NCBI GenBank assembly: GCA_934693215.1
Contig: CAKUVB010000001.1
Location: 1-43,055, forward strand
Length of the DNA stretch: 43,055 nt
Direction: 5' to 3'
Origin: an uncultured Candidatus Melainabacteria bacterium
Lineage (GTDB): Bacteria; Cyanobacteriota; Vampirovibrionia; Gastranaerophilales; Gastranaerophilaceae
Below, piece by piece: positions 17,232-30,409 of the stretch. A program made the position numbers and the translations under genes. A model generated the notes under the pieces. It saw nothing but the letters and a program-made list of their open reading frames with translations, ran no database searches and was not told the origin of the DNA. Each line of letters begins with the position of its first letter. The first letter of the stretch is position 1.

Positions 17232-20200
17232 TTACTCATGTTTTTGTTGCTCTTTGAACATTTCTTCTAGAATGTTCAATTTTTCAACAATCTGAGGTTG
17301 TGTAATTAATGTATCTAACTGAGAACGAATTAAATCCGTTAGATTATAGCTATATTCTGCTGATCTTTTATCTGTTTGTCTATCTATCATCTCTGCCATT
17401 GTATTTGTCAGAACATTTGGGAATGTTTCTAAATCTAATTTTTTAGAATGAATAAACACACCCTCTAATTTATCAAAAGGTTTTGATGCAGAAAAACCTG
17501 TTTTACTCTTAACATTTGAATTATTATCATATACATAAAGTTGTGGTATTATATCCGGTAATACTTTTTTTGAATCATTTTCAGCAATTAATTGTATAGC
17601 TTCATTAAGTATTTGTAATTGTTTTGATTGTCGCTCTGTTGGTCGTACAGAATGCGGTCTATGTAGTTTCTCATACAATTCATGTGCATCAGGAATACCT
17701 ATACCTCTACCTTCATTATCACAGAAGATATATCCTTGTTCTCTAAAGAAATCTTCTTCTTTTGGAGCAAGGTTGCGAGAATATTCACTATTAATTTTAT
17801 CTACAGTAACAACTTTTTTATCACCAAAATCTATATTCATTTTTCTATTTTTTGCTTCTCTAAGAACTGCAACTGCAAATTGATATGAAAGATTCTTTTT
17901 CTGAGAAGAAACATTAAATATTTTGCTTTTTGCATCTTTACTCATAAGAATTGGTTCTAATACTTCAAGAGCTTTTAACAATTCAGCATCAGATAATGTT
18001 TTGAGATAAGCAGAGGATAATTCTCGCATTTGACGAGCCTCTATTGACATTCTATCTCTAGTTGTATTCAAATCTATTGTATAACCGACTTTGTTTTTAA
18101 ACTCATCACCAAAAGCTGCTTGTTTAAATACAATAGTCATATCTTGCATACCGCCTTCCATTTTTTTGTCAGGGGTTTGGAATCTTTGTATATAATATAA
18201 GTTTCCGTTATGTTCAGGAGTAACTTTAAATCCAAAGAACTCATTTTCAACATCTAAATCTTTGAAATCAGGGTTATGCGGATTATAGAAATAATTTTTT
18301 GATTCCATAATCATTTTCACAAGATTTTCGTCTGTGGTATCAAATTCTACATAATTACCATCAAGTCGTTCAGGTTGTTTTGTCAAAGTTCTTAAAACTG
18401 ATGCATTTTCTTTATTGTTTTTATCAGAGTTTGTAAAATCCATTTGCCAATCAGCACAAGCAAATCTGACTCTATCCGAACCTTTCGCAAGCAAACTGCC
18501 AGCTATAATACGGCTACCTTCTCCGTAACCACCTGCATCTTTAGGATTATCCTTGTCAGAGCCACCAAGACGTTTCAAATGATGATAATCATAAATACCC
18601 TTACCATCTATTCTAACTGTATATGTACCGTTCTCGTTTTTATTAACTTTTATATCTACACCTTCAAGTGTATGACCATTTCCATCATAGAAATTTTGCA
18701 TCAAATCTCTAGCAATTTTTTCATTACTCCAATCTCTTTTTTCGGCATAAGAAACTGTCATTCTTGCTTGAACAGTTTTATTCAAATCCCTATCATTTTC
18801 TACGTTAGGTATTTCAGAAATTTTAGGATTTAATCCACCTGAATCAGCAATATTTATTTCAACATGCCCGTTATCCTCCAACTCTTTCATTGTTGTTTCT
18901 GTAGATTTGAGAGTTGTGTATGTATCATGTTTCTCAGGAATATATTCTTGATATTTAAGTGAGTTAGCTTTTTTAGGTTTCGTAACTGTTTCTGTTTCAA
19001 TTGCTGTTTCTACAGGCATTTCTGCTTTATTTCGTCTTAATATCCTATTAATAAAAGATTTTGCAAAACGTTTTATACCTGTTAAGTTAAATCTAGAAGT
19101 TATTTTGTGATTTTCTTCAAAGGTTTTTAATTTCGATTTATCAAAATCTAAAACTGCTTTATTATTTCCATCTGAAAGTTGTTTTTTAGATGTATACATA
19201 TCTTCTGATTCTGAAGATTTTTCCGGTACTACATATTCTTTATATTCAACAGGTGTTGATATCAATTGTTCTATAGATTGTTTATATTCTTCTGGTTCAA
19301 AATTATCATCTCTAATTATTTCTGTTTCTATTTTTTCCTTATACTGTTCACTTTTTACTTCATTAAAAAGTTTTGATAAAACTTGGAATTTTTTAATCGC
19401 ATTTGGATTATGCATCAAAACATTTGTAATATGCGATTGCATCTCAATTAATTGTTCAGAAAATCTTTCTGACGTATCCGGACCTATTTTGTGAGAAATT
19501 TCATGTAAAAATGTAGATAAATTTTCTACATAATTCTGTAATAACAAGTGACTATCACGCATCCAGTGACCTTGATATTCTCTGTTTTCAATAATTGCTT
19601 CAGCACCTTCATTTAAAGCACCACCTTCACCAAACATATATGTTGGTTTGCCGACTTCATCGCTATTTAATAAATTTTGTGTTCTTGTATCTGTACATTC
19701 TTGCAATATACGAACCCCTTCTTCTAACAGTCTGATTTGTTTAGATTGAGCCTCAGTAGGTTTATGTGGCATTTTAGATTCATCAACACTTGTAAGACTT
19801 GGCATACCAACATCTTTCATTTCTTCTACTGCAAGTTTATATCCCATTAGTTTTGCCATTTCTATAGTTTCAGGAGAAGCAAGTTTACTCATATATACAT
19901 ATCTGGAATCCTTGAAATCTATACCTAGACCACGTTCTTTTGCTTCTTGAATAAAAGGCATAAACATTGTATTGGATTGTTTATCTTCACTAATTTTCCA
20001 AAAATTTTCCATTGAAGAAATTGTTTGCGTAAGTTCTTCATCACTCATTGATTTTATATATCGAGATAAAATGCGATTAATATCACTTGACGGAATTTGA
20101 GCTCTATCAACACCTGTGCCAAGTTTAAAATCTGTTCCTCCATCTTTCTCTACAAGTGTTGGGTGGTTCGGCTGTGTCTTAAATACAATAGTAACACCAT

Positions 20201-23200
20201 CAAGTCCATTATCAGAAGTATAATTAGTTTCATATCGTTGTATTAAATATATATTACCACTTCTTTTTTGAGGTAACAATTTAATACCAAAAAACTCATT
20301 TTCAAAATCAAAGTTTTGAAAATCCGGATTATGCGGGTGATTAAAATAATCTTGAGCATCAAGAATATTTTTAACCATATAAATATTATCAGTTTCAAAT
20401 TCAACCGTAGACCCTTTCACTTTTGATTCATTTTGAGAAAGAGTTTGTGTCATATATGCAGATTTCAAATCATCAGAAGAACGACCATAAGTCATTGTCC
20501 AATCTCCTGATGCATATTTAACATTTTTTATATCAGGTTTAGAAAGTAGGCTTACAGCAACGGCTCTTGTTCCTTCACCATATCCACCGGCATCTAATGG
20601 ATTATGTTTTGTAGATGACCCCATTTTATCAAGATGAGCATAATCCCAACTGCTTTCACCTGAGATTTTTATTCTGTATGTTCCATTTTCTGTTTTGTTT
20701 ACTTCAATATCAACACCTTCAAGTGTATGACCATGACCGTCATAATAATTTTGAAGAATATCACGTGCTATTTTGAAATTACTCCATTGTAATTTTGTAC
20801 CATAGCGAATTTTTATATCTGCATCTTCTTCAACATTAAGACGTTCTCTATCCTCAGGGTGTATTATTGCATCATAAGGTTGTACTTTTACTCCACCTTC
20901 GTTAGGAATAGATAGTTTAACATGACCTGTATCCTTCAATTGAGCCATAAGCTCTCTTGTTGAAGGCAGTAAATCAACATTTACTCTTGGTTTTTTAGGT
21001 AATTTTTCAAATGGGTTTATTTTTGAAGGAGTATATTTATCCTCAAAAGAAGAATACATATTTCGTTTATCTATGCTTTCTGCAATAAGTTTAGCAGCCT
21101 CTACAGGGTCATAATCGACAGGTTCTGCCATTTTTTCTCGCATTTGAGATTCATATACTTCGACATCAACAGGTTCTTCTACTCTCACCTCTAGAGGTGT
21201 AACAAGCCTGTTAAAATCTTTGTCTGACATATTTAATATTCTTTGCCAATCACCAAATTTATACGTTTCTGATAATATATTTTGTCTTGTTTCAAAATTA
21301 GCTTTCTTTTGTTCAAATTCTTTGTCATCACAATTAAGGAATTCGAATACTTCACTATTATCAATAGATTTATTCTTATAAGCATTTTCTAACATTGAAA
21401 GAATTTCTCTTTGAGCAAGTTTAGAATAATCAAGCTCTAACAATTTATCTTTTTGTGCAGAATTACAATACAAATTTTGTATCAAGTCAATTTCATTTGT
21501 TTCAAGTAATGGATAATAACCCTCAAATCTCTGAATTATCGCATTTCGTTTAGTTTCATTTTCATTACAAGTTAATGCATAGTTTAAATCGGCAATTTGT
21601 CTATTTCTAGATGGAAAATATTGACTAAGATTTCTAGATGCCTGTTCAAGCTCTGAAACACCTTTAGTATAATATGGTAATTCCTTTAGGATTTGATTGA
21701 TAACTCTTTGTTCATCATCGTTTAATTTTTCATTTCTTATGTCACTAGAACCTGAACTTAGTAAAGATTCTTCACTACAATATTCCTCCAAATCCTTAAA
21801 ATCTTCAGGGGCAATATGGTTTTTCAAGATTTCTATATAATCATGTTTTAGTTTATTAAGTCTTTCAAACTTTGAAATCCTATATATACCATTATTAACA
21901 TTATTTATAAATCTCGCTTCTGCTTCTTTATCTTGAACAAAACTCAACAATTTTTCTGTTTGTTTCTCTGGAACTTGTCCATTTTCTTCAATTACTCTTG
22001 CAAGCTCTATATTATTTTTATTAATAGATCGAATACTTGAACGATTTAAATGAGTCAATACATCAATATTATCTTTTACAAAATCTTTATCCCAAGACTG
22101 TCTGTTTAATTTGGTTAAAATTGTACTTACATTTTCAGGGTGGCCATCATTATTGATATATGTTTTTTCAACAAGTTCTTGTGCAATATCGAAATTTTCT
22201 TTATTTGTCTTTGATAAAGTTTCATAAACATATTCTTTAGGTATATTTCTACCTTTTATCATATCTAATATTTGTGTTTTTGATGGAATATCTTCCATTT
22301 TTAAATTTCTATATGGAAGCCATTCTTCTTCAGCTTTATCACCTCTTAAATCTTTTGTTAAGTCATAAAACTGCTTTATTGCATCAGCATCACTATTTTC
22401 AAGTCCTTCTTTGACTTGTGCAAACCAATCTTGTGAAATATTTTCTTCGTTTGCAAAATTATCATATAATTTTTTGAACTGAGAATAATTTCTGTCATTT
22501 ATAAATATCATATGTTGTCCAAATATATTATCATTATGAATAATATTTGAATATTTACCTGCTTTTGCGTCTTTATAAAATTCTAACATTACTTTTTGGA
22601 CATCAGAAGGCGAACTTGCAATAAAAGTTCCATCTAACAAGTCTATTTTTTCTAAATCCGAACCAAAAGCTTTTATCAAGTTATTTGTACTCTCAGCATT
22701 ATCTGAAACACTAACTGCATATAAAATATCTGATTTTAGTTCGTCAGAAATATTATCTTTGCTCCTCAACGTATCTATTAATTCTTTGAAATCGGCTATA
22801 TTTTTTGAATTAATATGTCCAACAACTTCATGCCCGTCAGGAAACATTTTTTTGCCTTCTTCGGTGTTTATCCAATCAAAAATTTCTTTGACGGCAGATA
22901 AATCTTCAGGTTTGGAAATCTTCTCTATTTCTGATAATCCCATTAAATTTTGAGGAGTTTCATCACCCTTAAACTCTTTAATAAAATCTGCTTTTTGTTG
23001 CTCAAAATTCTCTGCCGTAATTAACTGAGTATTATTTTCCGAAGCTTTACTTTGTTTATGTGTATTTTCTTCGTTTATTCTATCTTCATTTCTTTCACCA
23101 TCATGTCTAACTGTTGCAGAAAGAACAGTTTTTGTAGGGTCAAAGTCTTGAGGGTTTTGTTCATTATCAGGAGTAACAGATTCTTCATTATTCGTAGAAG

Positions 23201-24725
23201 GTTTTATGTTGCTAGCCATATCAAATTGCATAATGACATTACATTTCGCAATAACTTCTTCCATTGTCAAAACATTACTTTTACTGCCATCAGGCATTGT
23301 TAATTCAAAAGAAGTTTTGCCATTATCTGTTTTCTTTTCAACTTTTATATTATTAAGTGTTTCACATTTAGACAAATTGTCTTTGATAATATTATTTCTA
23401 ATATCGGCAGTTCCTTTGTGCATAAATATCAATTTAGAAATAGCTTTTATCTCAGCAAGATTTGTCGCTTGTCCTTTAAAATGCTTCCACAAATATTTTG
23501 CTAAACCTTCTTCTGTCAAATCTTTTGGAAGATGTCTTTCTCCGTTTTCATCTTTTTTGAGTAATTCTTTTGTAACCTCATTAGCCGTTTCGTACATAGT
23601 AAACCCTGATATCTCAGCTAACATGCCGGCAGAATTTGCAACTACACCCGGACCTTGTTTGGTGAGAAAGGTTTGCATAATATCTTTACCTGTTAGAGAA
23701 GAGGATTTATCAAGAGTTTTTGCTAAGTTTTTAGTGACTGCATGAGAAACAGGTTTTTCTAAAAGTTTTGTCGTTCCTGCAACAACTTTACCAACAACGG
23801 TAGAACTTAATAACCCTGCAAAAGCACCAAATTTAGCGGATTCAATATTCCCCTGTTTGTATGCTGCCCATTCGTTAGCAGCATCTTCTCCTGAAAGTTG
23901 GATATCTTTTGTTTTAAGATTGATATAGTTCTTGCTTGCGTCCCATATTGAAAAAGTAGCACTTTGCATAGCCATAGCACCTAAAACAGCACCTACGGTT
24001 ACTTTGTTGCCACCAACCTTCATAAGACCTTTTGCAGATATATTTTTAAGAACTTTTGGTATATATGGAGATATCTTTTTACCAATCGCACCTACACCTT
24101 TGCCAAGTCCTTTGCTGATTAAACCTGTTCCAAGTAACATAATTACGATATCTGCGGCACCGTCTATGTATTCTTGATACTTAACTTTTTTGAGTGCGTT
24201 GTTCACAATTTTGTTTTCGTATGAAACATTACCGTTTTTATCAGTTTTTTCAACATTATATGCTTTTTCATAAGAAGCAGTCCAATCCTCACCATTAGAT
24301 GCGTTGACTAAAAACTCTTTCATTGCATCTTCATCATATTCTTTGCCGGTGAACTCCTTAAACTCACGTTTAAAATCGCCTTCGTGGTTGGCTACATATT
24401 CAAGCCTGTTTGTCGCAAATTCTTTTTCTTGTTCAAGGGTTTTGATAGCTGTATCACAGCAGAGCTTTATGTCTGTAATATTATTGTTCTTTAAAAATTT
24501 ACCGAGTTTTTCTCTATAAAACCCTGCATTCAATACCCCTTGATTACCTTGATATTGTTTGAGAGTATTTATTGCATTATCATACGCAATGGAGATGTTT
24601 TGAGCAGCAGCCTTCCTTATCTCAAGCTTTTGTTGCTCAGAATCTTGTTCTTGTGAGATATTACCTACCTTTGATGCTTTGTTCAATGCATTGGAAGATA
24701 TGTTATTCCCATCTACACTTACCAA
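17232..24725 (-). CDS. giant hypothetical protein, 2,497 aa; N-terminal hydrophobic-helix region, long helical middle, two tandem GHKL-ATPase-like modules
   Basis: Uninterrupted 7.5-kb ORF. TTG start with AAGGAG (24733-24738) 7 nt upstream. The internal duplication and motifs are described under findings. No signal peptide. Confidence 0.85.
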   Translation of the reverse strand: MVSVDGNNISSNALNKASKVGNISQEQDSEQQKLEIRKAAAQNISIAYDNAINTLKQYQGNQGVLNAGFYREKLGKFLKNNNITDIKLCCDTAIKTLEQEKEFATNRLEYVANHEGDFKREFKEFTGKEYDEDAMKEFLVNASNGEDWTASYEKAYNVEKTDKNGNVSYENKIVNNALKKVKYQEYIDGAADIVIMLLGTGLISKGLGKGVGAIGKKISPYIPKVLKNISAKGLMKVGGNKVTVGAVLGAMAMQSATFSIWDASKNYINLKTKDIQLSGEDAANEWAAYKQGNIESAKFGAFAGLLSSTVVGKVVAGTTKLLEKPVSHAVTKNLAKTLDKSSSLTGKDIMQTFLTKQGPGVVANSAGMLAEISGFTMYETANEVTKELLKKDENGERHLPKDLTEEGLAKYLWKHFKGQATNLAEIKAISKLIFMHKGTADIRNNIIKDNLSKCETLNNIKVEKKTDNGKTSFELTMPDGSKSNVLTMEEVIAKCNVIMQFDMASNIKPSTNNEESVTPDNEQNPQDFDPTKTVLSATVRHDGERNEDRINEENTHKQSKASENNTQLITAENFEQQKADFIKEFKGDETPQNLMGLSEIEKISKPEDLSAVKEIFDWINTEEGKKMFPDGHEVVGHINSKNIADFKELIDTLRSKDNISDELKSDILYAVSVSDNAESTNNLIKAFGSDLEKIDLLDGTFIASSPSDVQKVMLEFYKDAKAGKYSNIIHNDNIFGQHMIFINDRNYSQFKKLYDNFANEENISQDWFAQVKEGLENSDADAIKQFYDLTKDLRGDKAEEEWLPYRNLKMEDIPSKTQILDMIKGRNIPKEYVYETLSKTNKENFDIAQELVEKTYINNDGHPENVSTILTKLNRQSWDKDFVKDNIDVLTHLNRSSIRSINKNNIELARVIEENGQVPEKQTEKLLSFVQDKEAEARFINNVNNGIYRISKFERLNKLKHDYIEILKNHIAPEDFKDLEEYCSEESLLSSGSSDIRNEKLNDDEQRVINQILKELPYYTKGVSELEQASRNLSQYFPSRNRQIADLNYALTCNENETKRNAIIQRFEGYYPLLETNEIDLIQNLYCNSAQKDKLLELDYSKLAQREILSMLENAYKNKSIDNSEVFEFLNCDDKEFEQKKANFETRQNILSETYKFGDWQRILNMSDKDFNRLVTPLEVRVEEPVDVEVYESQMREKMAEPVDYDPVEAAKLIAESIDKRNMYSSFEDKYTPSKINPFEKLPKKPRVNVDLLPSTRELMAQLKDTGHVKLSIPNEGGVKVQPYDAIIHPEDRERLNVEEDADIKIRYGTKLQWSNFKIARDILQNYYDGHGHTLEGVDIEVNKTENGTYRIKISGESSWDYAHLDKMGSSTKHNPLDAGGYGEGTRAVAVSLLSKPDIKNVKYASGDWTMTYGRSSDDLKSAYMTQTLSQNESKVKGSTVEFETDNIYMVKNILDAQDYFNHPHNPDFQNFDFENEFFGIKLLPQKRSGNIYLIQRYETNYTSDNGLDGVTIVFKTQPNHPTLVEKDGGTDFKLGTGVDRAQIPSSDINRILSRYIKSMSDEELTQTISSMENFWKISEDKQSNTMFMPFIQEAKERGLGIDFKDSRYVYMSKLASPETIEMAKLMGYKLAVEEMKDVGMPSLTSVDESKMPHKPTEAQSKQIRLLEEGVRILQECTDTRTQNLLNSDEVGKPTYMFGEGGALNEGAEAIIENREYQGHWMRDSHLLLQNYVENLSTFLHEISHKIGPDTSERFSEQLIEMQSHITNVLMHNPNAIKKFQVLSKLFNEVKSEQYKEKIETEIIRDDNFEPEEYKQSIEQLISTPVEYKEYVVPEKSSESEDMYTSKKQLSDGNNKAVLDFDKSKLKTFEENHKITSRFNLTGIKRFAKSFINRILRRNKAEMPVETAIETETVTKPKKANSLKYQEYIPEKHDTYTTLKSTETTMKELEDNGHVEINIADSGGLNPKISEIPNVENDRDLNKTVQARMTVSYAEKRDWSNEKIARDLMQNFYDGNGHTLEGVDIKVNKNENGTYTVRIDGKGIYDYHHLKRLGGSDKDNPKDAGGYGEGSRIIAGSLLAKGSDRVRFACADWQMDFTNSDKNNKENASVLRTLTKQPERLDGNYVEFDTTDENLVKMIMESKNYFYNPHNPDFKDLDVENEFFGFKVTPEHNGNLYYIQRFQTPDKKMEGGMQDMTIVFKQAAFGDEFKNKVGYTIDLNTTRDRMSIEARQMRELSSAYLKTLSDAELLKALEVLEPILMSKDAKSKIFNVSSQKKNLSYQFAVAVLREAKNRKMNIDFGDKKVVTVDKINSEYSRNLAPKEEDFFREQGYIFCDNEGRGIGIPDAHELYEKLHRPHSVRPTERQSKQLQILNEAIQLIAENDSKKVLPDIIPQLYVYDNNSNVKSKTGFSASKPFDKLEGVFIHSKKLDLETFPNVLTNTMAEMIDRQTDKRSAEYSYNLTDLIRSQLDTLITQPQIVEKLNILEEMFKEQQKHE
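17235..18908 (-). repeat. module B of the intragenic tandem duplication (aa ~1940-2497)
   Basis: Aligns by eye with module A along its length. Contains ARDLMQNFYDG (nt 18682-18713) and DAGGYGEGS. Confidence 0.8.
19290..20969 (-). repeat. module A of the intragenic tandem duplication (aa ~1253-1812)
   Basis: Contains ARDILQNYYDG (nt 20737-20768), DAGGYGEGT (D codon at 20592-20594) and HEISH (19491-19505). Confidence 0.8.
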
Positions 24726-24825
24726 TTACTTACTCCTTATACTCCATTTGTTACATGGGTTTACGGCAAGGTTGAGAATTTCTTTAGGAATATAACGAAT
24801 TTATTTACAAAAATTAAAATATTGC

Positions 24826-24857
24826 ATAAAAAAAACTCCTCGTGGGAAATGAGGAGT
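24826..24857 (-). terminator. intrinsic terminator ending the grpE-dnaJ-propeller-methyltransferase unit
   Basis: 7-bp stem ACTCCTC / GAGGAGT with a 9-nt loop. On the minus strand it is followed by an 8-U run. It separates that operon from the giant gene. Confidence 0.65.
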
Positions 24858-25057: not shown

Positions 25058-25612
25058 CTAATTATTTTTATAAGAAACAGCAAGTCCGGCTGGCAAATCC
25101 AAAATTTCGGTTTGGAAATCACTATCAGACATAATAGCATCAAGATATGTTTGCACTTTTTCTCTATGAGAATTTACATTATCTGCAGCTATTATTGCAT
25201 TGGGTAGTAAATGCGGTTTGATTAATTCAAAGTTTTTTACATACTCTCGTTTATTGGCATCAATAAAAACAAAATCGAATTTTTTATCTGAATCAAAGTT
25301 CTCCATAATATCACACGCAGAACCCAATAAAGGAGTGTACATGCCGGCAAATCCACATTTATCATAATTTGCTCTGGCAACACTTTGACGTTTATCATAA
25401 TATTCTATAGTTGTTAAATGACCTTTTGTAACTTTTAGAGCATCAAGAAACCATAAACCTGAATATCCGTTTGATGTTCCAACCTCAAGAACACTTTTGG
25501 AATTACTAATTTTCACCAACATATTCAAGAAATTTCCTGTTGCTCTTGAAACATTCCAAAAATCTTTTTGTGTTTTTTCTAACTCAACTAAGGTTTCTTC
25601 TAATATACTCAT
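25058..25612 (-). CDS. class I SAM-dependent O-methyltransferase (caffeoyl-CoA OMT / YrrM-like)
   Basis: VLEVGTSNGYSGLWF (SAM motif I) and FDFVFIDANKREY are typical of the Methyltransf_3 family. Confidence 0.8.
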   Translation of the reverse strand: MSILEETLVELEKTQKDFWNVSRATGNFLNMLVKISNSKSVLEVGTSNGYSGLWFLDALKVTKGHLTTIEYYDKRQSVARANYDKCGFAGMYTPLLGSACDIMENFDSDKKFDFVFIDANKREYVKNFELIKPHLLPNAIIAADNVNSHREKVQTYLDAIMSDSDFQTEILDLPAGLAVSYKNN

Positions 25613-25614
25613 AA

Positions 25615-27060
25615 TTAAATCTTTCTTATATTTTTACCAACAATAATATGACTAGCAGGCATATCAAGAGGGTTTGTCTTTATAACCATTTTCTTATTCA
25701 AATCCAAAACCGAATACTTACCAGCTTTCGCATCAGAAATCAAAACCAACGATGTATTAGGTATCAATGTCATTGAAGTTGGAAAACCATTTGTGCTTAA
25801 TAATATGTTTGCAACAGGTTCATCAGTTGTTCTATCGATAACCTGTACTACATTATCCTCTGCACCCAACACATACAAGAACTTGCCATAAACTACCATA
25901 TCAACAGGTTTTTTAACTGTTTCGAATTCTGATAACAATGTTTGGTTTTTATAATCTAAAACTGCTATTCTATTTTTAGTTCTACTTGCAAGATACAAAT
26001 TACCATTTTCATACGCAAGTTTTGAAATATTAGGATAAGAGCCTAAATCCTTCAAAGTATATTCATTACCAAGCTCTATACTCCAAATTTTGTTTGTAAA
26101 TCTATCAACATAAATAAGATAATCATCATTCAATATCATACGTTCACATCTGCCATTAACCTTTATTTTTTTCTTCAAGGCCATATCTGACAAAGCAACT
26201 TGATAAATAGTATTAGCTACAGGACTTGAAACGTAAGCAACATTGCGTTTGCTATCCATTACTATTTCACCACCATTTGTAGTTAAATCTAACTGTTTGA
26301 TTATTCTATCATCAGCTAAAGATATTACATCTACAAGAGTTGAATTATATGCAGTAACTAACAAAAACTTGTTATCTGGAGTAATAGCTACACAATTAGG
26401 AATAGATTTTTGTGCCAATGCGTAAGCCGGTGTTTTAGATTCACCTTTTACGACCTGAATATTTTTTGTATAACAAGTTGAAATATAAAGAGTCTTGTCC
26501 TTCAACTGTGGAATTGTTGAAACAAGATTTGCCGGTTTTATATTATTAACAGTAACAACTTTATCATAATTAATCTTTGTTGCTGCAACTTTTATTTCTT
26601 CAGCTGGTGCAATTTTTATATCCAAATTCCCTGTAATACTTTTCAAGTTTTCAGGAATAATAAGATTCTTAGGTACAAGCATATCTTGTGGCAAAAGACC
26701 TGATTTAACCTCTACAGGCGGTTTGTCAAACTTCTTGATAGTTTTTGTACCGTTTTGATTCACAATAACCTTCAAAAGTACAAAATCGTTATTAAAAACA
26801 ACTACATCAGGACATTTTTGAAGTGGAGTTTTAGCCGGATATGTTGTTTGAACCTCAAACTTTTCCGGCGTTTTTATTTTTGCGGGATACAACGGTAAAT
26901 AAACCGTTCCATCTTGCAATATAATAACACCATCAAATCTTATATCAGCCGTTGGAAAAGTCTTCTTTAACATTGATTGAACATCATCTGGTAACTTTGC
27001 TGCCAATGTTGACGCAGAAGTTAAACACAAAACGATAAGTGAAAGAAGAAATTTTTTCAT
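25615..27060 (-). CDS. secreted protein with C-terminal YncE/YVTN-like beta-propeller repeats
   Basis: Signal peptide MKKFLLSLIVLCLTSASTLAA. The C-terminal ~300 aa show repeated beta-strand-rich units (..YVSSPVANTIYQV.., ..LYVLGAEDNVVQVID..). The fold call is tentative. Confidence 0.6.
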   Translation of the reverse strand: MKKFLLSLIVLCLTSASTLAAKLPDDVQSMLKKTFPTADIRFDGVIILQDGTVYLPLYPAKIKTPEKFEVQTTYPAKTPLQKCPDVVVFNNDFVLLKVIVNQNGTKTIKKFDKPPVEVKSGLLPQDMLVPKNLIIPENLKSITGNLDIKIAPAEEIKVAATKINYDKVVTVNNIKPANLVSTIPQLKDKTLYISTCYTKNIQVVKGESKTPAYALAQKSIPNCVAITPDNKFLLVTAYNSTLVDVISLADDRIIKQLDLTTNGGEIVMDSKRNVAYVSSPVANTIYQVALSDMALKKKIKVNGRCERMILNDDYLIYVDRFTNKIWSIELGNEYTLKDLGSYPNISKLAYENGNLYLASRTKNRIAVLDYKNQTLLSEFETVKKPVDMVVYGKFLYVLGAEDNVVQVIDRTTDEPVANILLSTNGFPTSMTLIPNTSLVLISDAKAGKYSVLDLNKKMVIKTNPLDMPASHIIVGKNIRKI

Positions 27061-28181
27061 TATTTAAAAGCCCCTTTGATTTTATCCTTAACAGATTGTT
27101 TCTTTACTCTACCAGTTTCTATTTCATACAAAGATTCGTACAAACGTCTTTCCTCATTAGAAATATGAGTTGGTGTTTTAACAGAAACAACAACAATATG
27201 ATTACCTCGCATTGATGGATTAGAAATAACAGGAACACCCTCACCTTTTATAGTAATTCTATCCCCTGATTGTAAACCTTGCGGAATAGATACTTTGCGA
27301 GTTCCATCAATTGTTTTTATTTCTACCTCATCACCCAATACAGCTTGTGCCGGAGATACTTCTAATTGGGTATAAACATTTATACCATCTCTATGGAAAT
27401 AGTCAGAAGGTTTGACGTGAATAATTACATACAAATCACCTGCTGGCCCACCGTTTTGTCCGGCATCACCTTCGCCCGACAATCTCATCTTAGAACCTGT
27501 GTCAACACCTTTAGGAACTTTTATTGTAAGAGTTTTTTCAACCTCTTTGCTTCCTTTACCTTTACAATCAGGGCAAGGGTCAGAAACAATTTTACCTTTA
27601 CCATGACATTTTGGACAAGTTGTAATCTGTGCAAAACTACCTAGTATGGTCTGAGTTGTTTGTTGAACTTGTCCTCGTCCACCACAAGTTGGACAAGTAA
27701 CAGGTTGACTGCCTTGTTTTGCACCTGTGCCACCACAAGACTTGCAAGTTTCAAGATGGTCTATTTTTATTTCTCTTTCAACCCCAAACATTGCTTCTTC
27801 AAACTCTAGTTCTATATCAAGTCTAAGATTTTCGCCTCGAGTTGGGGCATTCGGGTCAACTCGTCTTGAACCGCCAAAACCAAATCCACCAAAGAAAGAT
27901 TCAAATACATCATTCAAATCACCAAAGCCTTCAGCAAAAGGTCCTTGAGTTGAATAACCTGCATTTTGTAATCCTTCTTCTCCAAACCTATCATAAGTAG
28001 CACGTTTATTATCGTCCATTAAGGTTTCATAAGCCTTACCCAATTCTTTAAACTTAGCCTCAGCATCTGGTGCTTTGTTTACATCTGGGTGATATTTTCT
28101 TGCCATTTTTCTAAAGGCACTTTTTATTTCGTCTTTGGTTGCATCTTTTGATACGCCCAGTATTTCATAATAATCCGTCAT
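27060..28181 (-). CDS. dnaJ: molecular chaperone DnaJ
   Basis: J domain with HPD (KYHPDVNK), a G/F-rich region and four CxxCxGxG zinc-finger repeats. Confidence 0.95.
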   Translation of the reverse strand: MTDYYEILGVSKDATKDEIKSAFRKMARKYHPDVNKAPDAEAKFKELGKAYETLMDDNKRATYDRFGEEGLQNAGYSTQGPFAEGFGDLNDVFESFFGGFGFGGSRRVDPNAPTRGENLRLDIELEFEEAMFGVEREIKIDHLETCKSCGGTGAKQGSQPVTCPTCGGRGQVQQTTQTILGSFAQITTCPKCHGKGKIVSDPCPDCKGKGSKEVEKTLTIKVPKGVDTGSKMRLSGEGDAGQNGGPAGDLYVIIHVKPSDYFHRDGINVYTQLEVSPAQAVLGDEVEIKTIDGTRKVSIPQGLQSGDRITIKGEGVPVISNPSMRGNHIVVVSVKTPTHISNEERRLYESLYEIETGRVKKQSVKDKIKGAFK

Positions 28182-28207
28182 CTTTTTCTCTTTGCTATTT
28201 ATTATAT

Positions 28208-28804
28208 CTATTCAGCTGTTGCAACATTAACAAGTGCCGGTCTTAGCACTCTGTCACCTAGTTTATATCCCTTTTGCAATACTGCAATTATTGTATGTTC
28301 CGGTTGTTCGCTAGTAGGTGTTTGCATAACAGCTTCATGGAAATTAGGGTCAAATTCTTCTCCTTCGCACTCTATTGTTTCCATACCTACTTTTTGTAAC
28401 GCATCTTTTAATTGTTTATGTACAAGAGCAAAACTTTCTTTTACTTTTTCACAATCTTCAATATCTTTAATAGCCTTTTCTCCTCTATCAAAGTTATCTA
28501 AAACTTCCACCAATTTTTTCAATGTGTCTTCTGCACCATATTTCAAAAGACTTTCACGTTCTTGCGCTTGTCTTTTTCTATAGTTATCAAAATCTGCAGC
28601 AAGTCTTATATATTGATTATTCAAAGTATCATATTCTTGTTGCAACTTATCAATTTGTGCATCTATTTCTGACTTTGAATCTTTATCTATTTCTTCAGTT
28701 TTTTCGACAGTTTGTTCTGCAGGAGCTTTTTCATCAACAACTACTTCAGCTTCCGGATTAACCTCTGTTTTTTCTTGTTCATCTTTATTAAAAGGATTTG
28801 CCAT
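28208..28804 (-). CDS. grpE: nucleotide exchange factor GrpE
   Basis: The acidic N-terminus, RLAADFDNYRKR and the C-terminal GYKLGDRVLRPA.V are GrpE hallmarks. Confidence 0.9.
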   Translation of the reverse strand: MANPFNKDEQEKTEVNPEAEVVVDEKAPAEQTVEKTEEIDKDSKSEIDAQIDKLQQEYDTLNNQYIRLAADFDNYRKRQAQERESLLKYGAEDTLKKLVEVLDNFDRGEKAIKDIEDCEKVKESFALVHKQLKDALQKVGMETIECEGEEFDPNFHEAVMQTPTSEQPEHTIIAVLQKGYKLGDRVLRPALVNVATAE

Positions 28805-28933
28805 AACCTAAACTCCCTTACAGTATCGTACATTCTTAATTATAGATTATCAAGTAACATATACAAGGAAAGTTTATTTTTTTTTAACAATTGAAGATAC
28901 CAAAAAACTCATAAAATACAAACTTTATCAGAT

Positions 28934-29983
28934 TTAGAAAGTTTCTGTTTTATATGGATACAATGAATCTGCCGGTACAACTATTTGACTATTCACTTCC
29001 ACCTGAGATGAACCCTCAATAAGAGGTCTGTTTTTTACAAAATAAAGACTTTCACTTTGGATATAATCACAAATTGTTTTTTCTAGATTAACCCCAAAAT
29101 GTTGATTAATTTCTTTAATAAAATAACAAGGGCTTGTTACATTTATCTCTATAATCTGTTCATTTACAACATCTAACCCGGCCATTGGAATACCCATTTT
29201 ATTAAGCTCTTGAGCTACACGTTTAAAGTTTTGTTCTTCTGAAAATGTTAGTTTTGATTTTCTAATGTAATTATCATTATGTGTATTAAATTTGAAATCA
29301 TCATTCGTAGGAAGTTTTAGTACACATTCTGACAAAACATTATCTCCCAATGTCAAAACACGTTTATCTCCAAATTTGATATCAGGAATATATTTCTGAA
29401 CCATAACAAGAGAGTTTTCGTTATTAGTAACACTATTAATAATAGAACGAGTGTTAGGGTCACCTATATGCAAATACATAACCCCTGAACCAAAACATTG
29501 ATTAAGTGGTTTCAAAACAATTTCGCCACATTCGTTCAAAAAATCTTCTATACGAGAACGACTTGCTGACACAATGTATTTAGGCATAAGGTCTGAAAAC
29601 AACACAGTATGTATTTTTTCGTTAAAATTCCTAATAGCACGTGGGTCATTAATAATTTTTGTATTTTTTACAAAATCCAAAACGTATGTTGCACTCAAAT
29701 AATCCACATCTACAGGTGGGTCTGGACGGAACATTACGAGGTCAAAGTCTTCTACTTTGAAATTCAATATTTCTTTTTGATAAAAAATATTTTCATCTTC
29801 TATATATGATTTGTAAGTTCTTGCATAAGCACTTGAGTTTTCAAGATACAAATTATTTATGGTTGTTATGCAAACATTGTTCCCTCTTTCTAAGAACTCT
29901 TTTATAAGCCAAAAATTTGTAACAAGATTATTAAACTCAAAATACTTTAATTCAATCTTATCAATCACAAATAAAATATTCAT
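28934..29983 (-). CDS. gshB: glutathione synthetase-like ATP-grasp enzyme
   Basis: GDKRVLTLGDN and GLDVV..IIEINVTSP match the prokaryotic GshB signatures (GDKRIL; EINVTSP). The start is set at MNILFVIDK because AGAGG lies upstream; the track's longer start has no SD. Confidence 0.65.
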   Translation of the reverse strand: MNILFVIDKIELKYFEFNNLVTNFWLIKEFLERGNNVCITTINNLYLENSSAYARTYKSYIEDENIFYQKEILNFKVEDFDLVMFRPDPPVDVDYLSATYVLDFVKNTKIINDPRAIRNFNEKIHTVLFSDLMPKYIVSASRSRIEDFLNECGEIVLKPLNQCFGSGVMYLHIGDPNTRSIINSVTNNENSLVMVQKYIPDIKFGDKRVLTLGDNVLSECVLKLPTNDDFKFNTHNDNYIRKSKLTFSEEQNFKRVAQELNKMGIPMAGLDVVNEQIIEINVTSPCYFIKEINQHFGVNLEKTICDYIQSESLYFVKNRPLIEGSSQVEVNSQIVVPADSLYPYKTETF

Positions 29984-30164
29984 AATATACCTCTTTTGTC
30001 CCCTAGTAATATGAACAATCGTAACATCAAAACTATTCTTCAACAAGTTTGTAAAGCTGAATATAGCCCAAGTAGGAAGAAAAATCCTCTAATTGATGTA
30101 CTCAACTGCCGATTTAATAATTTTTATTTTTGGTAAATAACTGTAACGAAATTTTAAAAATATA

Positions 30165-30191
30165 GCAATTTTCATTTTTCAGAATATTTAA
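30165..30191 (+). promoter_or_regulatory. bipartite motif, copy E7 (weak: GCAATTT-N14-ATTTAA)
   Basis: The first box and spacing are exact, and the second box matches 4 of 6. It lies 27 nt upstream of the 47-aa ORF. Confidence 0.25.
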
Positions 30192-30218
30192 AATCGGAGT
30201 AGAAAGGTAACCCCAAAT

Positions 30219-30362: not shown

Positions 30363-30375
30363 ATAATACTAAAAT

Positions 30376-30397: not shown

Positions 30398-30409
30398 ACC
30401 TTTTATATT

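What the first reader, a model, noticed from the sequence alone, without database searches (positions are those of the whole stretch)
17232..24725. Giant 2,497-aa protein ending in two tandem GHKL/Bergerat-ATPase-like modules; family not recognisable
One uninterrupted 7.5-kb ORF with a TTG start and AAGGAG 7 nt upstream. It is set off from the upstream operon by an intrinsic terminator at 24826-24857.

The C-terminal ~1,250 aa are two diverged copies of one large module, aa ~1253-1812 and ~1940-2497. By eye the cores are roughly 55-65% identical. Matching blocks (module A / module B):
- WSNFKIARDILQNYYDGHGHTLEGVDIEVNKTENGTYRIKISG / WSNEKIARDLMQNFYDGNGHTLEGVDIKVNKNENGTYTVRIDG
- NPLDAGGYGEGTR / NPKDAGGYGEGSR
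- HNPDFQNFDFENEFFGIKL / HNPDFKDLDVENEFFGFKV
- PTEAQSKQIRLLEEG / PTERQSKQLQILNEA

The pattern DxxxNxxD, then about 55 residues, then GxxGxG fits motif I (N box) and motif III (G2 box) of the GHKL ATP-binding fold (Hsp90, MutL, GyrB, MORC, sacsin repeats). It deviates from canon by having Asp in place of the usual Glu and no clear DxGxG box.

The ~1,250 aa before the modules have no motif I recognise. Tandem GHKL-like modules inside a giant protein recall the sacsin-type repeat architecture. I cannot place this protein in any described bacterial family, and it is the most likely seat of novel biology in the window.
Basis: partly seen in the sequence, partly recalled or inferred. Interest (0 to 1): 0.8.

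Follow-up and report, generated by a model that had tools for sequence, protein, structure and literature searches.

The report
Giant protein with GHKL–zinc-protease modules
A 2,497-residue protein of a gut Melainabacterium ends in two copies of a previously undescribed three-part module (an Hsp90/MORC-type ATPase fold, a middle domain and a small zinc protease); only the first copy keeps the protease metal site, so it may be an enzyme that switches a protease on through an ATPase-type fold, which is not how any protease I know of is controlled.

Summary
The ORF, TTG start, RBS, upstream hairpin and internal duplication are all real. The duplication is 33% identical over 571 aa (E 7e-96), not 55-65%. 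An AlphaFold2 model of module A (pLDDT 90.6) matches TRAP1/Hsp90, Topo VI-B, ParE, MORC3/4 and phage rIIA-like proteins. The proposed N-box and G2-box residues are at least 94% conserved in 103 modules. It is a small WLM/selecase-like zincin with the family signature HExxH[KQ]xGGD. That site is intact in module A and in single-module relatives and destroyed in every module B. Module A has in turn lost two otherwise invariant residues (Y1757, T1760) that B keeps. The canonical adenine-binding Asp of the G1 box is Ile/Val in the whole family, so ATP binding is unproven. The family has 518 clusters at 50% identity, mostly Gastranaerophilales and some Patescibacteria. It has no Pfam, NCBIfam, PADLOC or literature description and no conserved neighbours. 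Most single-module members carry an N-terminal membrane anchor. Best reading: a ligand-gated, dimerising GHKL switch controls a latent metalloprotease, and the tandem form is a single-chain pseudo-heterodimer. The domain composition is solid; the mechanism is inferred.

The parts
17232..24725 (-). Whole gene: 2,497 codons plus stop, TTG start
   Evidence: same-length proteins predicted in public assemblies (P0001-P0012)
24733..24738 (-). AAGGAG ribosome-binding site, 7 nt before the TTG
   Evidence: read directly from the sequence
24827..24857 (-). Terminator-like hairpin plus U8 that closes the upstream GshB-GrpE-DnaJ-propeller-methyltransferase gene string
   Evidence: dG -9.6 kcal/mol, z -3.55; upstream genes identified
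24186..24725 (-). aa 1-180: polar N/K/E-rich N-terminus with no signal-peptide-like segment
   Evidence: 50% identity to the 57% relative
23346..24185 (-). aa 181-460: Gly/Ala-rich region with three moderately hydrophobic segments (186-211, 242-260, 299-317); candidate membrane-association region; shared only with other giant tandem proteins
   Evidence: Hydropathy scan; BLAST to other giant members at 25-56% identity; 65% identity to P0014, the best-conserved part outside the modules
20970..23345 (-). aa 461-1252: fast-evolving E/K/N-rich spacer of unknown fold; aa ~1000-1250 are conserved among tandem proteins
   Evidence: no hit in Pfam, NCBIfam, PDB, PHROGs or PADLOC
19290..20969 (-). Module A (aa 1253-1812): GHKL + middle + active-looking zincin
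   Evidence: AF2 pLDDT 90.6, pTM 0.78; Foldseek
20340..20834 (-). Module A GHKL (Bergerat-fold) domain, aa ~1298-1462. N-box IARDILQNYYDG 1319-1330; G1-like strand YRIKISGESSW 1350-1360; G2 box DAGGYGEGTR 1378-1387; motif IV KGSTVEFET 1437-1445
   Evidence: Secondary-structure order in the model; column statistics; Foldseek GHKL hits; boundaries approximate
19770..20339 (-). Module A middle (transducer-like) domain, aa ~1463-1652, with invariant N1466, Q1496, K1516 and the D1540-R1541 pair (position 1539 is Arg in most of the family, Val in window module A)
   Evidence: Foldseek alignments to TRAP1, ParE 43 kDa and MORC ATPase cassettes run 310-660 columns, beyond a GHKL domain alone; boundaries approximate
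19305..19769 (-). Module A zincin domain, aa ~1653-1807; FLHEISHKIGPD at aa 1739-1750 (nt 19476-19511)
   Evidence: Family signature; selecase prob 0.96-0.99 with TMt 0.55-0.58, and Wss1 prob 0.80; Pfam WLM sub-threshold in 21 of 66 members
18912..19289 (-). Inter-module linker, aa 1813-1938, K/E-rich; most of it (aa 1838-1920) is predicted disordered
   Evidence: pLDDT below 50 for model residues 541-623; 40% identity to P0014
17235..18911 (-). Module B (aa 1939-2497): GHKL and middle motifs intact (IARDLMQNFYDG 2004-2015, DAGGYGEGSR 2063-2072, TRDRMS 2222-2227). The zincin metal site is lost (TMAEMIDRQTD 2442-2452), but Y2460 and T2463 are retained

Best explanation
The gene encodes a member of an undescribed protein family. 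Its unit is a ~520-560-aa module of three domains. The first is a Bergerat-fold GHKL domain, nearest to the MORC/Hsp90/sacsin/phage-rIIA branch. The second is a transducer-like middle domain. The third is a small WLM/minigluzincin-type zinc metallopeptidase with the motif HExxH[KQ]xGGD. This composition is shown.

The mechanism is inferred. As in other GHKL proteins, ligand (probably nucleotide) binding in the GHKL pocket drives dimerisation of two modules, and the middle domains transmit that change. This positions or unmasks the latent peptidase, so proteolysis is gated by the GHKL cycle. Single-module relatives would act as homodimers tethered to the membrane by an N-terminal anchor. In the giant protein one ancestral duplication has put both partners in one chain. 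Both GHKL and middle units stay under full constraint, but only module A keeps the zinc site. Module B keeps two family-invariant residues (Tyr and Thr on the helix after the metal site) that A has lost. The result would be a single-chain pseudo-heterodimer with one functional, possibly composite, active site. The ~1,250-aa N-terminal part is a lineage-specific tether and spacer that includes a conserved hydrophobic region. The substrate is unknown. My guess is that it acts on proteins at or near the membrane (quality control or processing), by analogy with FtsH/HtpX and with Wss1 plus Cdc48.
For: Fold: the AF2 model of module A has pLDDT 90.6 and pTM 0.78 from a 66-sequence MSA. The first 16 Foldseek PDB hits are GHKL ATPases: TRAP1 (E 3e-5), Topo VI-B, ParE, MORC4 and MORC3. 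Separate hits go to selecase (prob 0.96-0.99, TMt 0.55-0.58) and Wss1 (prob 0.80). In BFVD, uncharacterised phage proteins score E 4e-14, followed by a long run of rIIA-like, HSP90-family and histidine-kinase-like ATPase proteins.

Sequence bridge: a family member (P0168) hits phrog_6077 at 3.8e-11. The family profile hits phage EC152 and K412 proteins that carry a canonical RELIQNAIDA N-box. EC152 scores E 8.7e-7 on the NCBIfam sacsin N-terminal model and 9e-4 on HATPase_c_3.

Conservation: RDxxQNF[YF]D[GA], K1373, AGx[FY]GEG, G[NST]x[IVL]EFxT, Q1496, K1516 and the RDR triad (D1540 and R1541 invariant) are near-invariant in modules A and B and in single modules. HExxH..D is present in 21 of 21 aligned A modules, 83 of 90 single C-terminal modules and 14 of 14 single N-terminal modules. 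H1741 is absent from all 19 B modules.

Reciprocal loss is confined to the zincin domain, while 46 other conserved positions are kept in both modules. A and B form one clade nested among the single-module proteins. B's pseudo-zincin evolves faster than A's zincin (59% against 71% identity).

The tandem AF2 model has pTM 0.62 with a disordered linker. This is above my rough estimate of ~0.45 for modules placed independently.

Forty-two single-module proteins have a clean 19-26-residue hydrophobic anchor.

Precedents: paraMORC GHKL ATPases fused to C-terminal effector domains (PMC3710099); the WLM protease Wss1 is latent, is activated by oligomerisation, and works with an ATPase chaperone (PMC4559962).
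Against: The adenine-contacting Asp of the G1 box is Ile/Val across the family. This register was inferred from the strand pattern and model secondary structure, not from a superposition. ATP binding is therefore unproven, and the catalytic-base position holds Asp rather than Glu. No profile library places the family in GHKL or WLM above threshold. hhalign against Hsp82 and MutL single sequences gave nothing. Whole-chain TM-scores are low (0.2-0.35) because the domains are oriented differently. I had no coordinates or PAE, so I could not inspect the A-B contact, the position of Y/T relative to the zinc site, or the pocket geometry. Membrane topology is undetermined (p = 0.18); if the module is extracytoplasmic, an ATP-driven cycle is unlikely. 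There is no expression, substrate or neighbourhood evidence.
Confidence: 0.5

Rival explanations
1. Regulated or sensor metalloprotease with a pseudo-GHKL domain. The Bergerat-fold domain no longer binds ATP. It serves as a ligand-binding, dimerisation or substrate-recognition scaffold for a membrane-tethered, possibly extracytoplasmic, zinc protease. No energy coupling is involved.
For: The G1-box Asp is replaced by Ile/Val in all classes, and Glu by Asp in the N-box. The single-module forms have a signal-anchor-like segment preceded by a Lys-rich tail, which is compatible with an N-in/C-out topology. The best peptidase match, selecase, is to my knowledge a minimal soluble model of the catalytic domains of membrane metalloproteases.
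Against: The Mg-binding Asn, lid Lys, G2 glycine loop, motif IV and middle-domain Q/K/RDR residues are invariant even in protease-dead module B. That is hard to explain without a phosphate-containing ligand and a transducer function. Patescibacteria forms have no anchor. Phage relatives with a canonical ExxxN N-box also lack the G1 Asp, so its loss need not mean loss of nucleotide binding.
Confidence: 0.25
2. One reading: a sacsin-like giant chaperone with two tandem GHKL ATPase modules, acting on protein folding. The C-terminal part of each module is only structural.
For: GHKL fold with best PDB hits to Hsp90/TRAP1. Repeated modules in a giant protein as in sacsin (PMC3710099). Sub-threshold sacsin-domain hits through the phage bridge protein.
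Against: The HExxHxxGxD site is conserved in about 93% of single modules and in all aligned A modules, with a zincin fold. That argues for catalysis, not structure. No SACS, HSP90, DnaJ or HEPN domains were found. Most family members have one module, not repeats.
Confidence: 0.1
3. DNA-directed machine. A MORC- or Topo VI-B-like ATP-driven DNA clamp is fused to an SprT/Wss1-like protease that removes DNA-bound or crosslinked proteins.
For: MORC, Topo VI-B, ParE and MutL-type GHKL ATPases act on DNA, to my knowledge. Wss1 and SprT/Spartan are DNA-dependent proteases (PMC4559962). Both kinds appear among the Foldseek hits.
Against: No DNA-binding domain was detected. The single-module forms are membrane-anchored. 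There are no restriction-modification or repair genes in conserved neighbourhoods. The third zinc ligand and its spacing differ from WLM.
Confidence: 0.07
4. Secreted or injected giant toxin or effector, whose N-terminal hydrophobic region inserts into a target membrane and whose modules act in a target cell.
For: Giant size, variable N-terminal region and Gly/Ala-rich hydrophobic segments. Zincin domains are common in effectors (PMC3417536). Vampirovibrio relatives are predatory (PMC4451040, listed).
Against: No immunity-like or secretion genes sit next to the gene, and the context is housekeeping and varies between species. No signal peptide or known delivery domain was found. The family is near-universal as one or two copies in gut fermenters, not polymorphic cassettes.
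Confidence: 0.06

Closest known systems
Phage rIIA-like and uncharacterised phage GHKL proteins (phrog_6077; e.g. Enterobacter phage EC152 WZX10611.1, Vibrio phage K412 CAM0051634.1; T4-type rIIA)
   Same: These are the closest relatives of the GHKL + middle part by structure (BFVD E 4e-14 to 1e-4) and by sequence. They share QNxxD, GxFGEGxK and LDRDR, and they also lack a G1 Asp. rIIA is annotated as membrane-associated in phage records.
   Different: The two phage proteins examined (379 and 408 aa) are too short to hold a zincin domain, keep the canonical Glu in the N-box and are encoded by viruses. Their function is itself unknown. The window's module A gives no direct tblastn hit to phages.
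MORC/paraMORC and other GHKL-S5 ATPases with C-terminal effector domains
   Same: GHKL + transducer cassette followed by an effector domain. MORC-style G2 box GxFGxGxK. Foldseek hits to MORC3/4 ATPase cassettes over 311-347 columns. A paraMORC-HEPN fusion is a precedent (PMC3710099).
   Different: HATPase_c_3 is not reached (2 of 66 members, E >= 0.024). There is no G1 Asp. The effector is a zincin rather than a nuclease/HEPN. There is no restriction-modification neighbourhood.
Hsp90/TRAP1 and the sacsin repeating region
   Same: Best PDB fold match, with alignment spanning the N and middle domains. Sacsin is a giant protein with repeated Hsp90-like modules. The N-box resembles the sacsin/Hsp90 ELIxNAxDA motif through the phage bridge protein.
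   Different: No Pfam HSP90 or SACS hit. No Hsp90 C-terminal dimerisation domain, DnaJ, UBL or HEPN. About 10% identity. The module carries a peptidase.
WLM/Wss1, SprT/Spartan and minigluzincins (selecase, abylysin)
   Same: Small zincin fold with HExxH on the active-site helix followed by G-x-[metal ligand]-x-x-x-F. Foldseek selecase prob 0.99 and Wss1 prob 0.80. WLM is the most frequent weak Pfam hit (21 of 66). Wss1 is latent, is activated by oligomerisation, and partners with an ATPase chaperone.
   Different: Below the Pfam threshold. The presumed third ligand is Asp, five residues after the second His, where I recall WLM having His six residues after it. There are no SIM, VIM or SHP motifs. 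It is fused in cis to a GHKL module.
FtsH (membrane-anchored AAA+ ATPase fused to an HExxH peptidase)
   Same: Functional analogy only: N-terminal membrane anchor, then an ATPase-type domain, then an HExxH zinc peptidase in one chain, acting as an oligomer.
   Different: A different ATPase superfamily (AAA+ against GHKL), a different peptidase family (M41), and a hexameric ring against a presumed dimer. There is no homology.

Membership tests
GHKL (Bergerat-fold) ATPase superfamily | Bergerat alpha/beta sandwich fold | tested here: met
   AF2 pLDDT 90.6. Top Foldseek hits are TRAP1, Topo VI-B, ParE and MORC3/4 at prob 0.92-1.0, and rIIA/HSP90-like proteins in BFVD at prob 1.0.
GHKL (Bergerat-fold) ATPase superfamily | Motif I / N-box ExxxNxxD on the first long helix | tested here: met
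   RD1322xxQN1326xxD1329G lies on model helix 64-78 and is 94-100% conserved. Asp replaces the catalytic Glu. It aligns to RELIQNAIDA of the phage relatives.
GHKL (Bergerat-fold) ATPase superfamily | Motif II / G1 box DxGxG with the adenine-binding Asp | tested here: not met
   The strand reads [YF]x[VI]x[IV]-x-G-x-[GSA]. The in-register Asp position is Ile/Val in all 147 modules. The neighbouring position varies (S, E, D, K, R). The register is inferred from the strand pattern and model secondary structure, not from a superposition.
GHKL (Bergerat-fold) ATPase superfamily | Motif III / G2 box GxxGxG before a helix, and motif IV (G-T/S...) on a strand | tested here: met
   A-G1380-x-[FY]-G1383-E-G1385 is 100% conserved in the 103-module set and is followed by helix 133-142. 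G1438-[NST]-x-[IVL]-E-F-x-T is also conserved.
GHKL (Bergerat-fold) ATPase superfamily | ATP binding and hydrolysis; ATP-driven N-terminal dimerisation | not testable with these tools
   The only indirect evidence is the tandem model pTM of 0.62 and the conservation of pocket residues.
GHKL (Bergerat-fold) ATPase superfamily | Recognition by curated profiles (HATPase_c, HATPase_c_3) | tested here: not met
   No hit for the window protein. HATPase_c_3 appears in 2 of 66 members at E >= 0.024. The phage bridge protein scores E 9e-4, 19.7 bits against a cutoff of 25.
Sacsin repeating region (SRR) | Match to the SACS domain or sacsin N-terminal ATP-binding-like models | tested here: not met
   No hit for the window protein or four family members. 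Only phage EC152 scores: NF047352 at 29.3 bits (cutoff 50) and PF25794 at E 0.013.
Sacsin repeating region (SRR) | Architecture: UBL, three SRRs, DnaJ, HEPN | tested here: not met
   None of these domains was detected. The only resemblance is repeated GHKL-type modules in a giant protein.
MORC / paraMORC GHKL-S5 ATPases | GHKL followed by an S5-fold transducer that supplies a conserved basic residue to the gamma-phosphate | tested here: inconclusive
   Foldseek alignments to MORC, ParE and TRAP1 extend 310-660 columns, beyond the GHKL domain. Q1496, K1516 and R1541 are conserved. Without coordinates I could not confirm the S5 fold or residue placement.
MORC / paraMORC GHKL-S5 ATPases | Association with restriction-modification or defence neighbourhoods | tested here: not met
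   No partner is conserved across 75 loci, and the window context is housekeeping. PADLOC found nothing.
WLM / SprT / minigluzincin zincins | Zincin fold with HExxH on the active-site helix | tested here: met
   H1741-E-x-x-H1745 lies on model helix 480-495. Selecase scores prob 0.96-0.99 with TMt 0.55-0.58, and Wss1 prob 0.80 with TMt 0.46. The motif is conserved in all aligned A modules, 83 of 90 single C-terminal modules and 14 of 14 single N-terminal modules.
WLM / SprT / minigluzincin zincins | Third metal ligand as in WLM (His six residues after the second His; this spacing is from my memory) | tested here: not met
   The family has an invariant Asp (D1750) five residues after H1745, giving HExxHxxGxD.
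WLM / SprT / minigluzincin zincins | Pfam WLM gathering threshold | tested here: not met
   21 of 66 members hit WLM, but the best E-value is 0.001 and the best score 19 bits against a cutoff of 26.
WLM / SprT / minigluzincin zincins | Zinc binding and peptidase activity | not testable with these tools
   Needs metal analysis and an activity assay with an E1742A control.
Phage rIIA | N-terminal GHKL domain with a variable C-terminal domain, phage-encoded, paired with rIIB | tested here: not met
   There is structural similarity only. The gene is chromosomal in a housekeeping context, with no rIIB-like neighbour identified. Module A gives no tblastn hit in phages.

The most novel reading that the evidence does not exclude
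These proteins are a new class of energy- or ligand-dependent protease, in which a GHKL (Hsp90/MORC-type) dimerisation cycle gates a minimal zincin instead of an AAA+ ring. The active site would be assembled across the dimer: HExxH..D from one module and Tyr/Thr from the other. This would explain why the giant single-chain form keeps exactly one complementary half-site in each module. To my knowledge every ATP-dependent protease described so far uses an AAA+ ATPase.
Probability: 0.2. Interest if true: 0.85.

Novelty: new variant of a known kind. Interest (0 to 1): 0.68.

Why it matters
GHKL ATPases are known as DNA clamps, chaperones and kinases. Small WLM/minigluzincin proteases are known as latent enzymes that need a partner or oligomerisation to act. 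I found no description of the two fused in one conserved module, and no Pfam, NCBIfam, PADLOC or PHROG annotation names it. If the GHKL cycle really gates the peptidase, it would be a mechanistically new way to control proteolysis.

The tandem form would also be a clean natural example of a homodimer turned into a single-chain pseudo-heterodimer with reciprocal site degeneration. The family is large (518 clusters at 50% identity) and occurs in many species of Gastranaerophilales, an uncultured but common gut lineage, as well as in Patescibacteria. It therefore accounts for part of the "dark" proteome of these organisms.

The family also links to uncharacterised phage GHKL proteins and to rIIA, whose biochemical function is to my knowledge still unknown. 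The family-wide loss of the adenine-binding Asp, with every other pocket residue retained, raises a specific and testable question about what this branch of the GHKL fold binds.

Tried and rejected
1. The Pfam hit KH_DEAH11_1st (PF24638, 28.2 bits, nominally above its cutoff) covers only 24 residues of a GHKL beta-hairpin. I rejected it as a false positive.
2. A sequence search of the whole protein against the PDB gave nothing. A search with the 66-member profile returned only spurious 19-residue matches to de novo TIM barrels and to coiled coils.
3. hhalign of the family N-domain profile against Hsp82-N and MutL-N gave probability below 1% and the wrong register. Both reference sequences were recalled from memory and validated against the PDB. 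There is therefore no residue-level bridge, and motif mapping rests on model secondary-structure order, column statistics and the phage bridge proteins.
4. PADLOC found no defence-system match. PHROGs found nothing for the giant protein.
5. tblastn of module A against phage genomes gave no hit. Only the single-module relative P0168 reached phage proteins.
6. The gene-neighbourhood analysis of 75 loci found no conserved partner. By inspection of their sequences, the recurrent neighbours look like housekeeping genes (BioD-like, DnaN-like, XerC/D-like, acyl-CoA ligase-like) shared only by close relatives; I did not profile-scan them.
7. A positive-inside analysis of 42 anchored proteins was not significant, so topology was left open.
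8. Pfam on longer giant relatives (P0138, P0136, P0014) showed nothing significant in their N-terminal regions.
9. Literature searches for GHKL + zincin, GHKL + metallopeptidase, rIIA + GHKL, sacsin + GHKL + bacterial, and Melainabacteria + giant + protein + metalloprotease found no description of this fusion.
10. I considered that the ORF might be an artefact or pseudogene and rejected it, because many independent contigs carry the same full-length protein.


Full report
OBSERVATION

The window is a 31% GC chromosomal segment. The minus-strand ORF 17232..24725 is uninterrupted: 2,497 codons with a TTG start. AAGGAG sits 7 nt upstream at 24733-24738. A hairpin followed by U8 lies at 24827-24857, on the same strand and about 100 nt upstream. 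It has a 7-bp stem and a 9-nt loop, with dG -9.6 kcal/mol and z = -3.55. The consensus scanner did not report it, probably because the loop exceeds the scanner's 8-nt limit.

BLASTP of aa 1151-1850 against aa 1851-2497 gives one alignment: aa 1253-1789 against 1939-2492, 33% identity over 571 columns, E 7e-96. The duplication is therefore real and far beyond chance. The N-terminal 1,150 aa have no internal repeat.

ORGANISM AND CONTEXT

The flanking genes are housekeeping. On one side lie desulfoferrodoxin, a GT2 glycosyltransferase, phosphoglucomutase and a bifunctional nuclease. Upstream on the same strand lie GshB, GrpE, DnaJ, a beta-propeller protein and an O-methyltransferase. Further out are a ClpC-type ATPase, a CHAP-domain protein, a nucleoside transporter and DHPS. 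There are no tRNAs.

A scan of one genome per GTDB species with the module profile returned 75 loci. Nearly all are from Candidatus Gastranaerophilales/Melainabacteria MAGs of animal guts, and one is from Vampirovibrionaceae. The closest, at 94% identity, is Gastranaerophilales HGM07924. The window therefore comes from a gut Gastranaerophilales bacterium.

WHAT THE CURATED LIBRARIES SAY

The curated libraries say nothing useful. Pfam gives only a 24-residue match to KH_DEAH11_1st, which I treat as spurious. NCBIfam, PADLOC, PHROGs and a PDB sequence search give nothing for the giant protein. In that sense "family not recognisable" is correct.

THE FAMILY

The word-indexed search found 267 relatives. 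The listed 120 are near-identical proteins plus a group of ~3,140-3,690-aa proteins at 57% identity, all unnamed. Each of the ten I checked ends in the same two modules.

An exhaustive HMMER profile search of 1.84 billion cluster representatives found 518 clusters at E <= 1e-3 and 177 at E <= 1e-30. Three architectures appear:
- Giant proteins of 1,150-6,024 aa with two tandem modules.
- Proteins of ~650-940 aa with one C-terminal module. This is the commonest form in Gastranaerophilales.
- Proteins of ~800-880 aa with one N-terminal module followed by about 300 aa that draw only weak coiled-coil-type Pfam hits. One of these is a "hypothetical protein" from a Patescibacteria MAG.

Forty-two of the single C-terminal-module proteins have one clean 19-26-residue hydrophobic segment at about aa 35-110, flanked by Lys/Arg. 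The giant proteins share a conserved Gly/Ala-rich, moderately hydrophobic region instead. In the window protein it is aa 181-460, with segments at 186-211, 242-260 and 299-317.

No gene neighbour is conserved across the 75 loci. Neighbours that recur among close relatives look like housekeeping genes by inspection.

THE MODULE HAS THREE DOMAINS

AlphaFold2 on module A (aa 1253-1812), with a 66-sequence alignment of diverse family members, gave mean pLDDT 90.6 and pTM 0.78.

Against the PDB, Foldseek returns only GHKL ATPases in the first 16 places:
- TRAP1/Hsp90 (E 3e-5, prob 1.0, alignment ~660 columns)
- Topo VI-B
- ParE
- MORC4 and MORC3 ATPase cassettes

Separately, for a ~110-130-residue stretch, it returns the minimal zincin selecase (prob 0.96-0.99, TM normalised to the target 0.55-0.58) and Wss1 (prob 0.80).

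Against predicted viral structures the matches are stronger. Uncharacterised phage proteins of 360-540 aa score E 4e-14 to 1e-8. They are followed by dozens of rIIA, rIIA-like, "HSP90 family" and "histidine kinase-like ATPase" proteins.

The order of elements in the model matches the Bergerat fold:
- a helix carrying RDILQNYYDG
- two strands
- a short helix
- a long loop ending in AGGYGEG
- a helix
- a long hairpin ending in GSTVEF

SEQUENCE-LEVEL SUPPORT

Scanning all 66 aligned members individually against Pfam, the only recurrent non-coiled-coil families are WLM (21 members, best E 0.001) and HATPase_c_3 (2 members). All are below threshold.

A family member (P0168) hits phrog_6077, of unknown function, at E 3.8e-11 over its GHKL part. 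It also finds hypothetical proteins in 50 phage genomes by tblastn. Two of these are Enterobacter phage EC152 (379 aa) and Vibrio phage K412 (408 aa). They align to the family profile and carry a canonical N-box (RELIQNAIDA), a MORC-style G2 box (GKFGEGMK) and the family's LDRDR motif. EC152 scores sub-threshold on the NCBIfam sacsin N-terminal ATP-binding-like model (E 8.7e-7), on HATPase_c_3 (E 9e-4) and on SACS (E 0.013).

This chain places the family's D1322 at the position of the catalytic Glu. It independently ties the family to the HATPase_c_3/sacsin/MORC branch.

A direct hhalign of the family profile against Hsp82 or MutL single sequences was uninformative.

CONSERVATION

Across 103 modules from 75 loci and 147 modules from the exhaustive search, the following are near-invariant:
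- W1314
- R1321-D1322-x-x-Q1325-N1326-F-[YF]-D1329-[GA]
- G1356
- K1373
- A-G1380-x-[FY]-G1383-E-G1385
- W1409
- G1438-x-x-x-E-F-x-T
- N1466, Q1496, K1516
- the Arg-Asp-Arg triad at 1539-1541 (window module A has Val at 1539)

There is one clear failure. The G1-box strand reads [YF]-x-[VI]-x-[IV]-x-G-x-[GSA]. Given the in/out alternation of the strand, the position equivalent to the adenine-contacting Asp of DxGxG (Hsp82 D79, from my knowledge of that structure) is Ile or Val in every class. The next residue is variable. The phage relatives lack the Asp too. Nucleotide binding is therefore plausible, because the Mg-binding Asn, lid Lys, phosphate loop and middle-domain Gln/Lys/Arg are all kept. 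It is not established, and the base-recognition mode cannot be canonical.

Module A contains FLHEISHKIGPD (aa 1739-1750). Across the family this is the signature T-[WYA]-[LIM]-H-E-x-x-H-[KQ]-x-G-[GS]-D-x-[ST]-x-x-F-S-Y-x-L-T-D. H1741 and H1745 are each present as follows:
- 21 of 21 aligned first modules of tandem proteins
- 83 of 90 single C-terminal modules
- 14 of 14 single N-terminal modules

In the model the motif lies on helix 480-495, and the invariant Asp sits in the loop before the next helix. The resemblance to the WLM consensus as I recall it extends beyond HExxH and probably explains the recurrent weak WLM hits. The putative third ligand here is Asp, five residues after the second His, not His at six.

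In every second module the site is destroyed. H1741 becomes A, S or C, H1745 is variable, and D1750 is mostly lost. In the window this region reads TMAEMIDRQTD.

RECIPROCAL DEGENERATION

I took all positions that are at least 75% conserved in single modules and asked what the tandem modules retain:
- 46 positions are kept in both A and B. All lie in the GHKL and middle domains except two leucines.
- Six are kept in A and lost in B: W1721, T1738, L1740, H1741, D1750 and F1755, all around the metal site.
- Exactly two are kept in B (94% and 88%) and lost in A (5% and 4%): Y1757 and T1760, on the helix after the metal site.

A and B together form one clade nested within the single-module diversity. 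That fits a single duplication.

Against the 57%-identity relative, regional identities are as follows:

| Region | Identity |
|---|---|
| Module A, GHKL + middle | 74% |
| Module A, zincin | 71% |
| Module B, GHKL + middle | 69% |
| Module B, pseudo-zincin | 59% |
| Hydrophobic region (aa 181-460) | 65% |
| Spacers and linker | 40-43% |

AlphaFold2 on aa 1298-2497, with 17 tandem sequences, gave pLDDT 80.1 and pTM 0.62, with the linker disordered at aa 1838-1920. By my rough estimate, two independently placed modules of this quality would give about 0.45. The model therefore hints at a defined A-B arrangement. I could not see the PAE or coordinates, so this is weak evidence.

INTERPRETATION

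Shown:
- The gene is real.
- The duplicated module is real.
- The module has a GHKL fold, an additional middle domain and a zincin-fold domain with a conserved HExxH..D site.
- The zincin site is present in A and absent in B.
- The family is large, lineage-restricted and unannotated.
- Many members are membrane-anchored.

Inferred:
- The GHKL domains dimerise in response to a ligand, as GHKL proteins generally do (my knowledge of the GHKL literature).
- The middle domain transmits this change.
- The peptidase is thereby switched on.
- The tandem protein is a single-chain version of the dimer with one working site.
- That site may be composite.

Precedents for the logic are GHKL ATPases fused to C-terminal effector domains (paraMORC-HEPN; PMC3710099) and the latent WLM protease Wss1. 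Wss1 is grouped with the minigluzincins, is activated by DNA binding and oligomerisation, and works with the ATPase chaperone Cdc48 (PMC4559962). The overall layout of anchor, ATPase-type domain and HExxH peptidase is analogous to FtsH, not homologous to it.

The main rival is that the GHKL domain is a pseudo-ATPase scaffold on a membrane or surface protease. The missing G1 Asp and the undetermined topology keep this alive. DNA-directed and toxin readings have little support.

NOVELTY

Literature searches for GHKL with zincin or metallopeptidase, rIIA with GHKL, sacsin with GHKL and bacteria, and Melainabacteria giant proteins found no description of this fusion. No curated profile covers it.

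Both component folds are well known, and GHKL-effector fusions are an established theme. I therefore rate it a new variant of a known kind. A more radical possibility, a GHKL-gated protease with a trans-assembled active site, remains open.

LIMITS

- There is no experimental evidence.
- I had no coordinates.
- The genome scan used two clade-specific peptide patterns, so the taxonomic spread is a lower bound.
- The E-values of the PDB fold matches are modest (3e-5 and weaker) because the multi-domain orientation differs from that of the targets.
- The function of the N-terminal 1,250 aa remains unknown.

Noticed in passing
L001 7349-7351 (CAAFVD010000013.1, Gastranaerophilales HGM07924); equivalent to window codon 369 of the giant ORF (about nt 23619-23621): The orthologue in the closest species-representative MAG has an in-frame TAA where the window has TTA (Leu), splitting the gene into 368 + 2,128 codons. 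It is a single-base difference: either a MAG consensus error or a strain-level nonsense mutation.
   Followed up: partly
window 20652-20723 (aa 1335-1358): Pfam PF24638 KH_DEAH11_1st scores 28.2 bits, just above its 27-bit cutoff, on 24 residues of a GHKL beta-hairpin. It is the only precomputed Pfam label on the close homologues. It is a false-positive annotation that could propagate.
   Followed up: yes
L076 3992-5131 (Enterobacter phage EC152, WZX10611.1); L077 4001-5227 (Vibrio phage K412, CAM0051634.1): A family of ~380-410-aa phage 'hypothetical proteins' is the nearest sequence relative of the module's GHKL + middle part. I link it to phrog_6077 by inference, because P0168's GHKL region hits both. 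Members occur in Vequintavirinae-like phages of ~140-150 kb and in ~46-60-kb Pseudomonas phages such as PaMx11. They have a canonical RELIQNAIDA N-box but also no G1 Asp, and they sit among small early-type genes.
   Followed up: partly
window 4552-6126 (-) and 37983-38999 (+): Two sizeable ORFs (524 aa and 338 aa) have no Pfam match at E <= 1e-4.
   Followed up: no
L004, L015, L021, L037, L052, L057, L062, L067, L068, L070, L074: Contigs carrying this Melainabacteria-typical family are labelled Methanomethylophilaceae archaeon, Muribaculaceae, Brachyspira sp. CAG:484, Clostridiaceae/Clostridium or Gammaproteobacteria in their records. They are probably mis-assigned or contaminated bins.
   Followed up: no
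P0124 (6,024 aa, ENA contig of 71 kb): The largest relative has the two modules in the middle (aa 1740-2969), followed by about 3,000 further residues of unknown nature. It was too long for the family-scan tool.
   Followed up: no
L012 13543-13974 and the equivalent ORFs in L013-L015; L039 8341-9390 and the equivalent ORFs in L043 and L057: A 143-aa ORF lies directly downstream of the tandem-module gene in four loci. A ~340-364-aa ORF of unknown function lies directly upstream of the single-module gene in three loci. These may be lineage-specific partners or just local synteny.
   Followed up: no
P0141-P0146, P0149-P0150, P0153-P0156, P0159-P0163 (about 840-940 aa): A subgroup of single-module proteins gives split profile hits with a gap of very roughly 100 aa between the middle and zincin parts. 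This looks like an inserted segment or a divergent stretch.
   Followed up: no
window 25058-35000 (-): The genes upstream on the same strand include several for protein quality control or redox balance: a ClpC-type ATPase, GshB, GrpE and DnaJ. A beta-propeller protein and an O-methyltransferase follow, and then the hairpin. This arrangement is shared only with the same-species contig L001, so I draw no functional link to the giant gene.
   Followed up: partly
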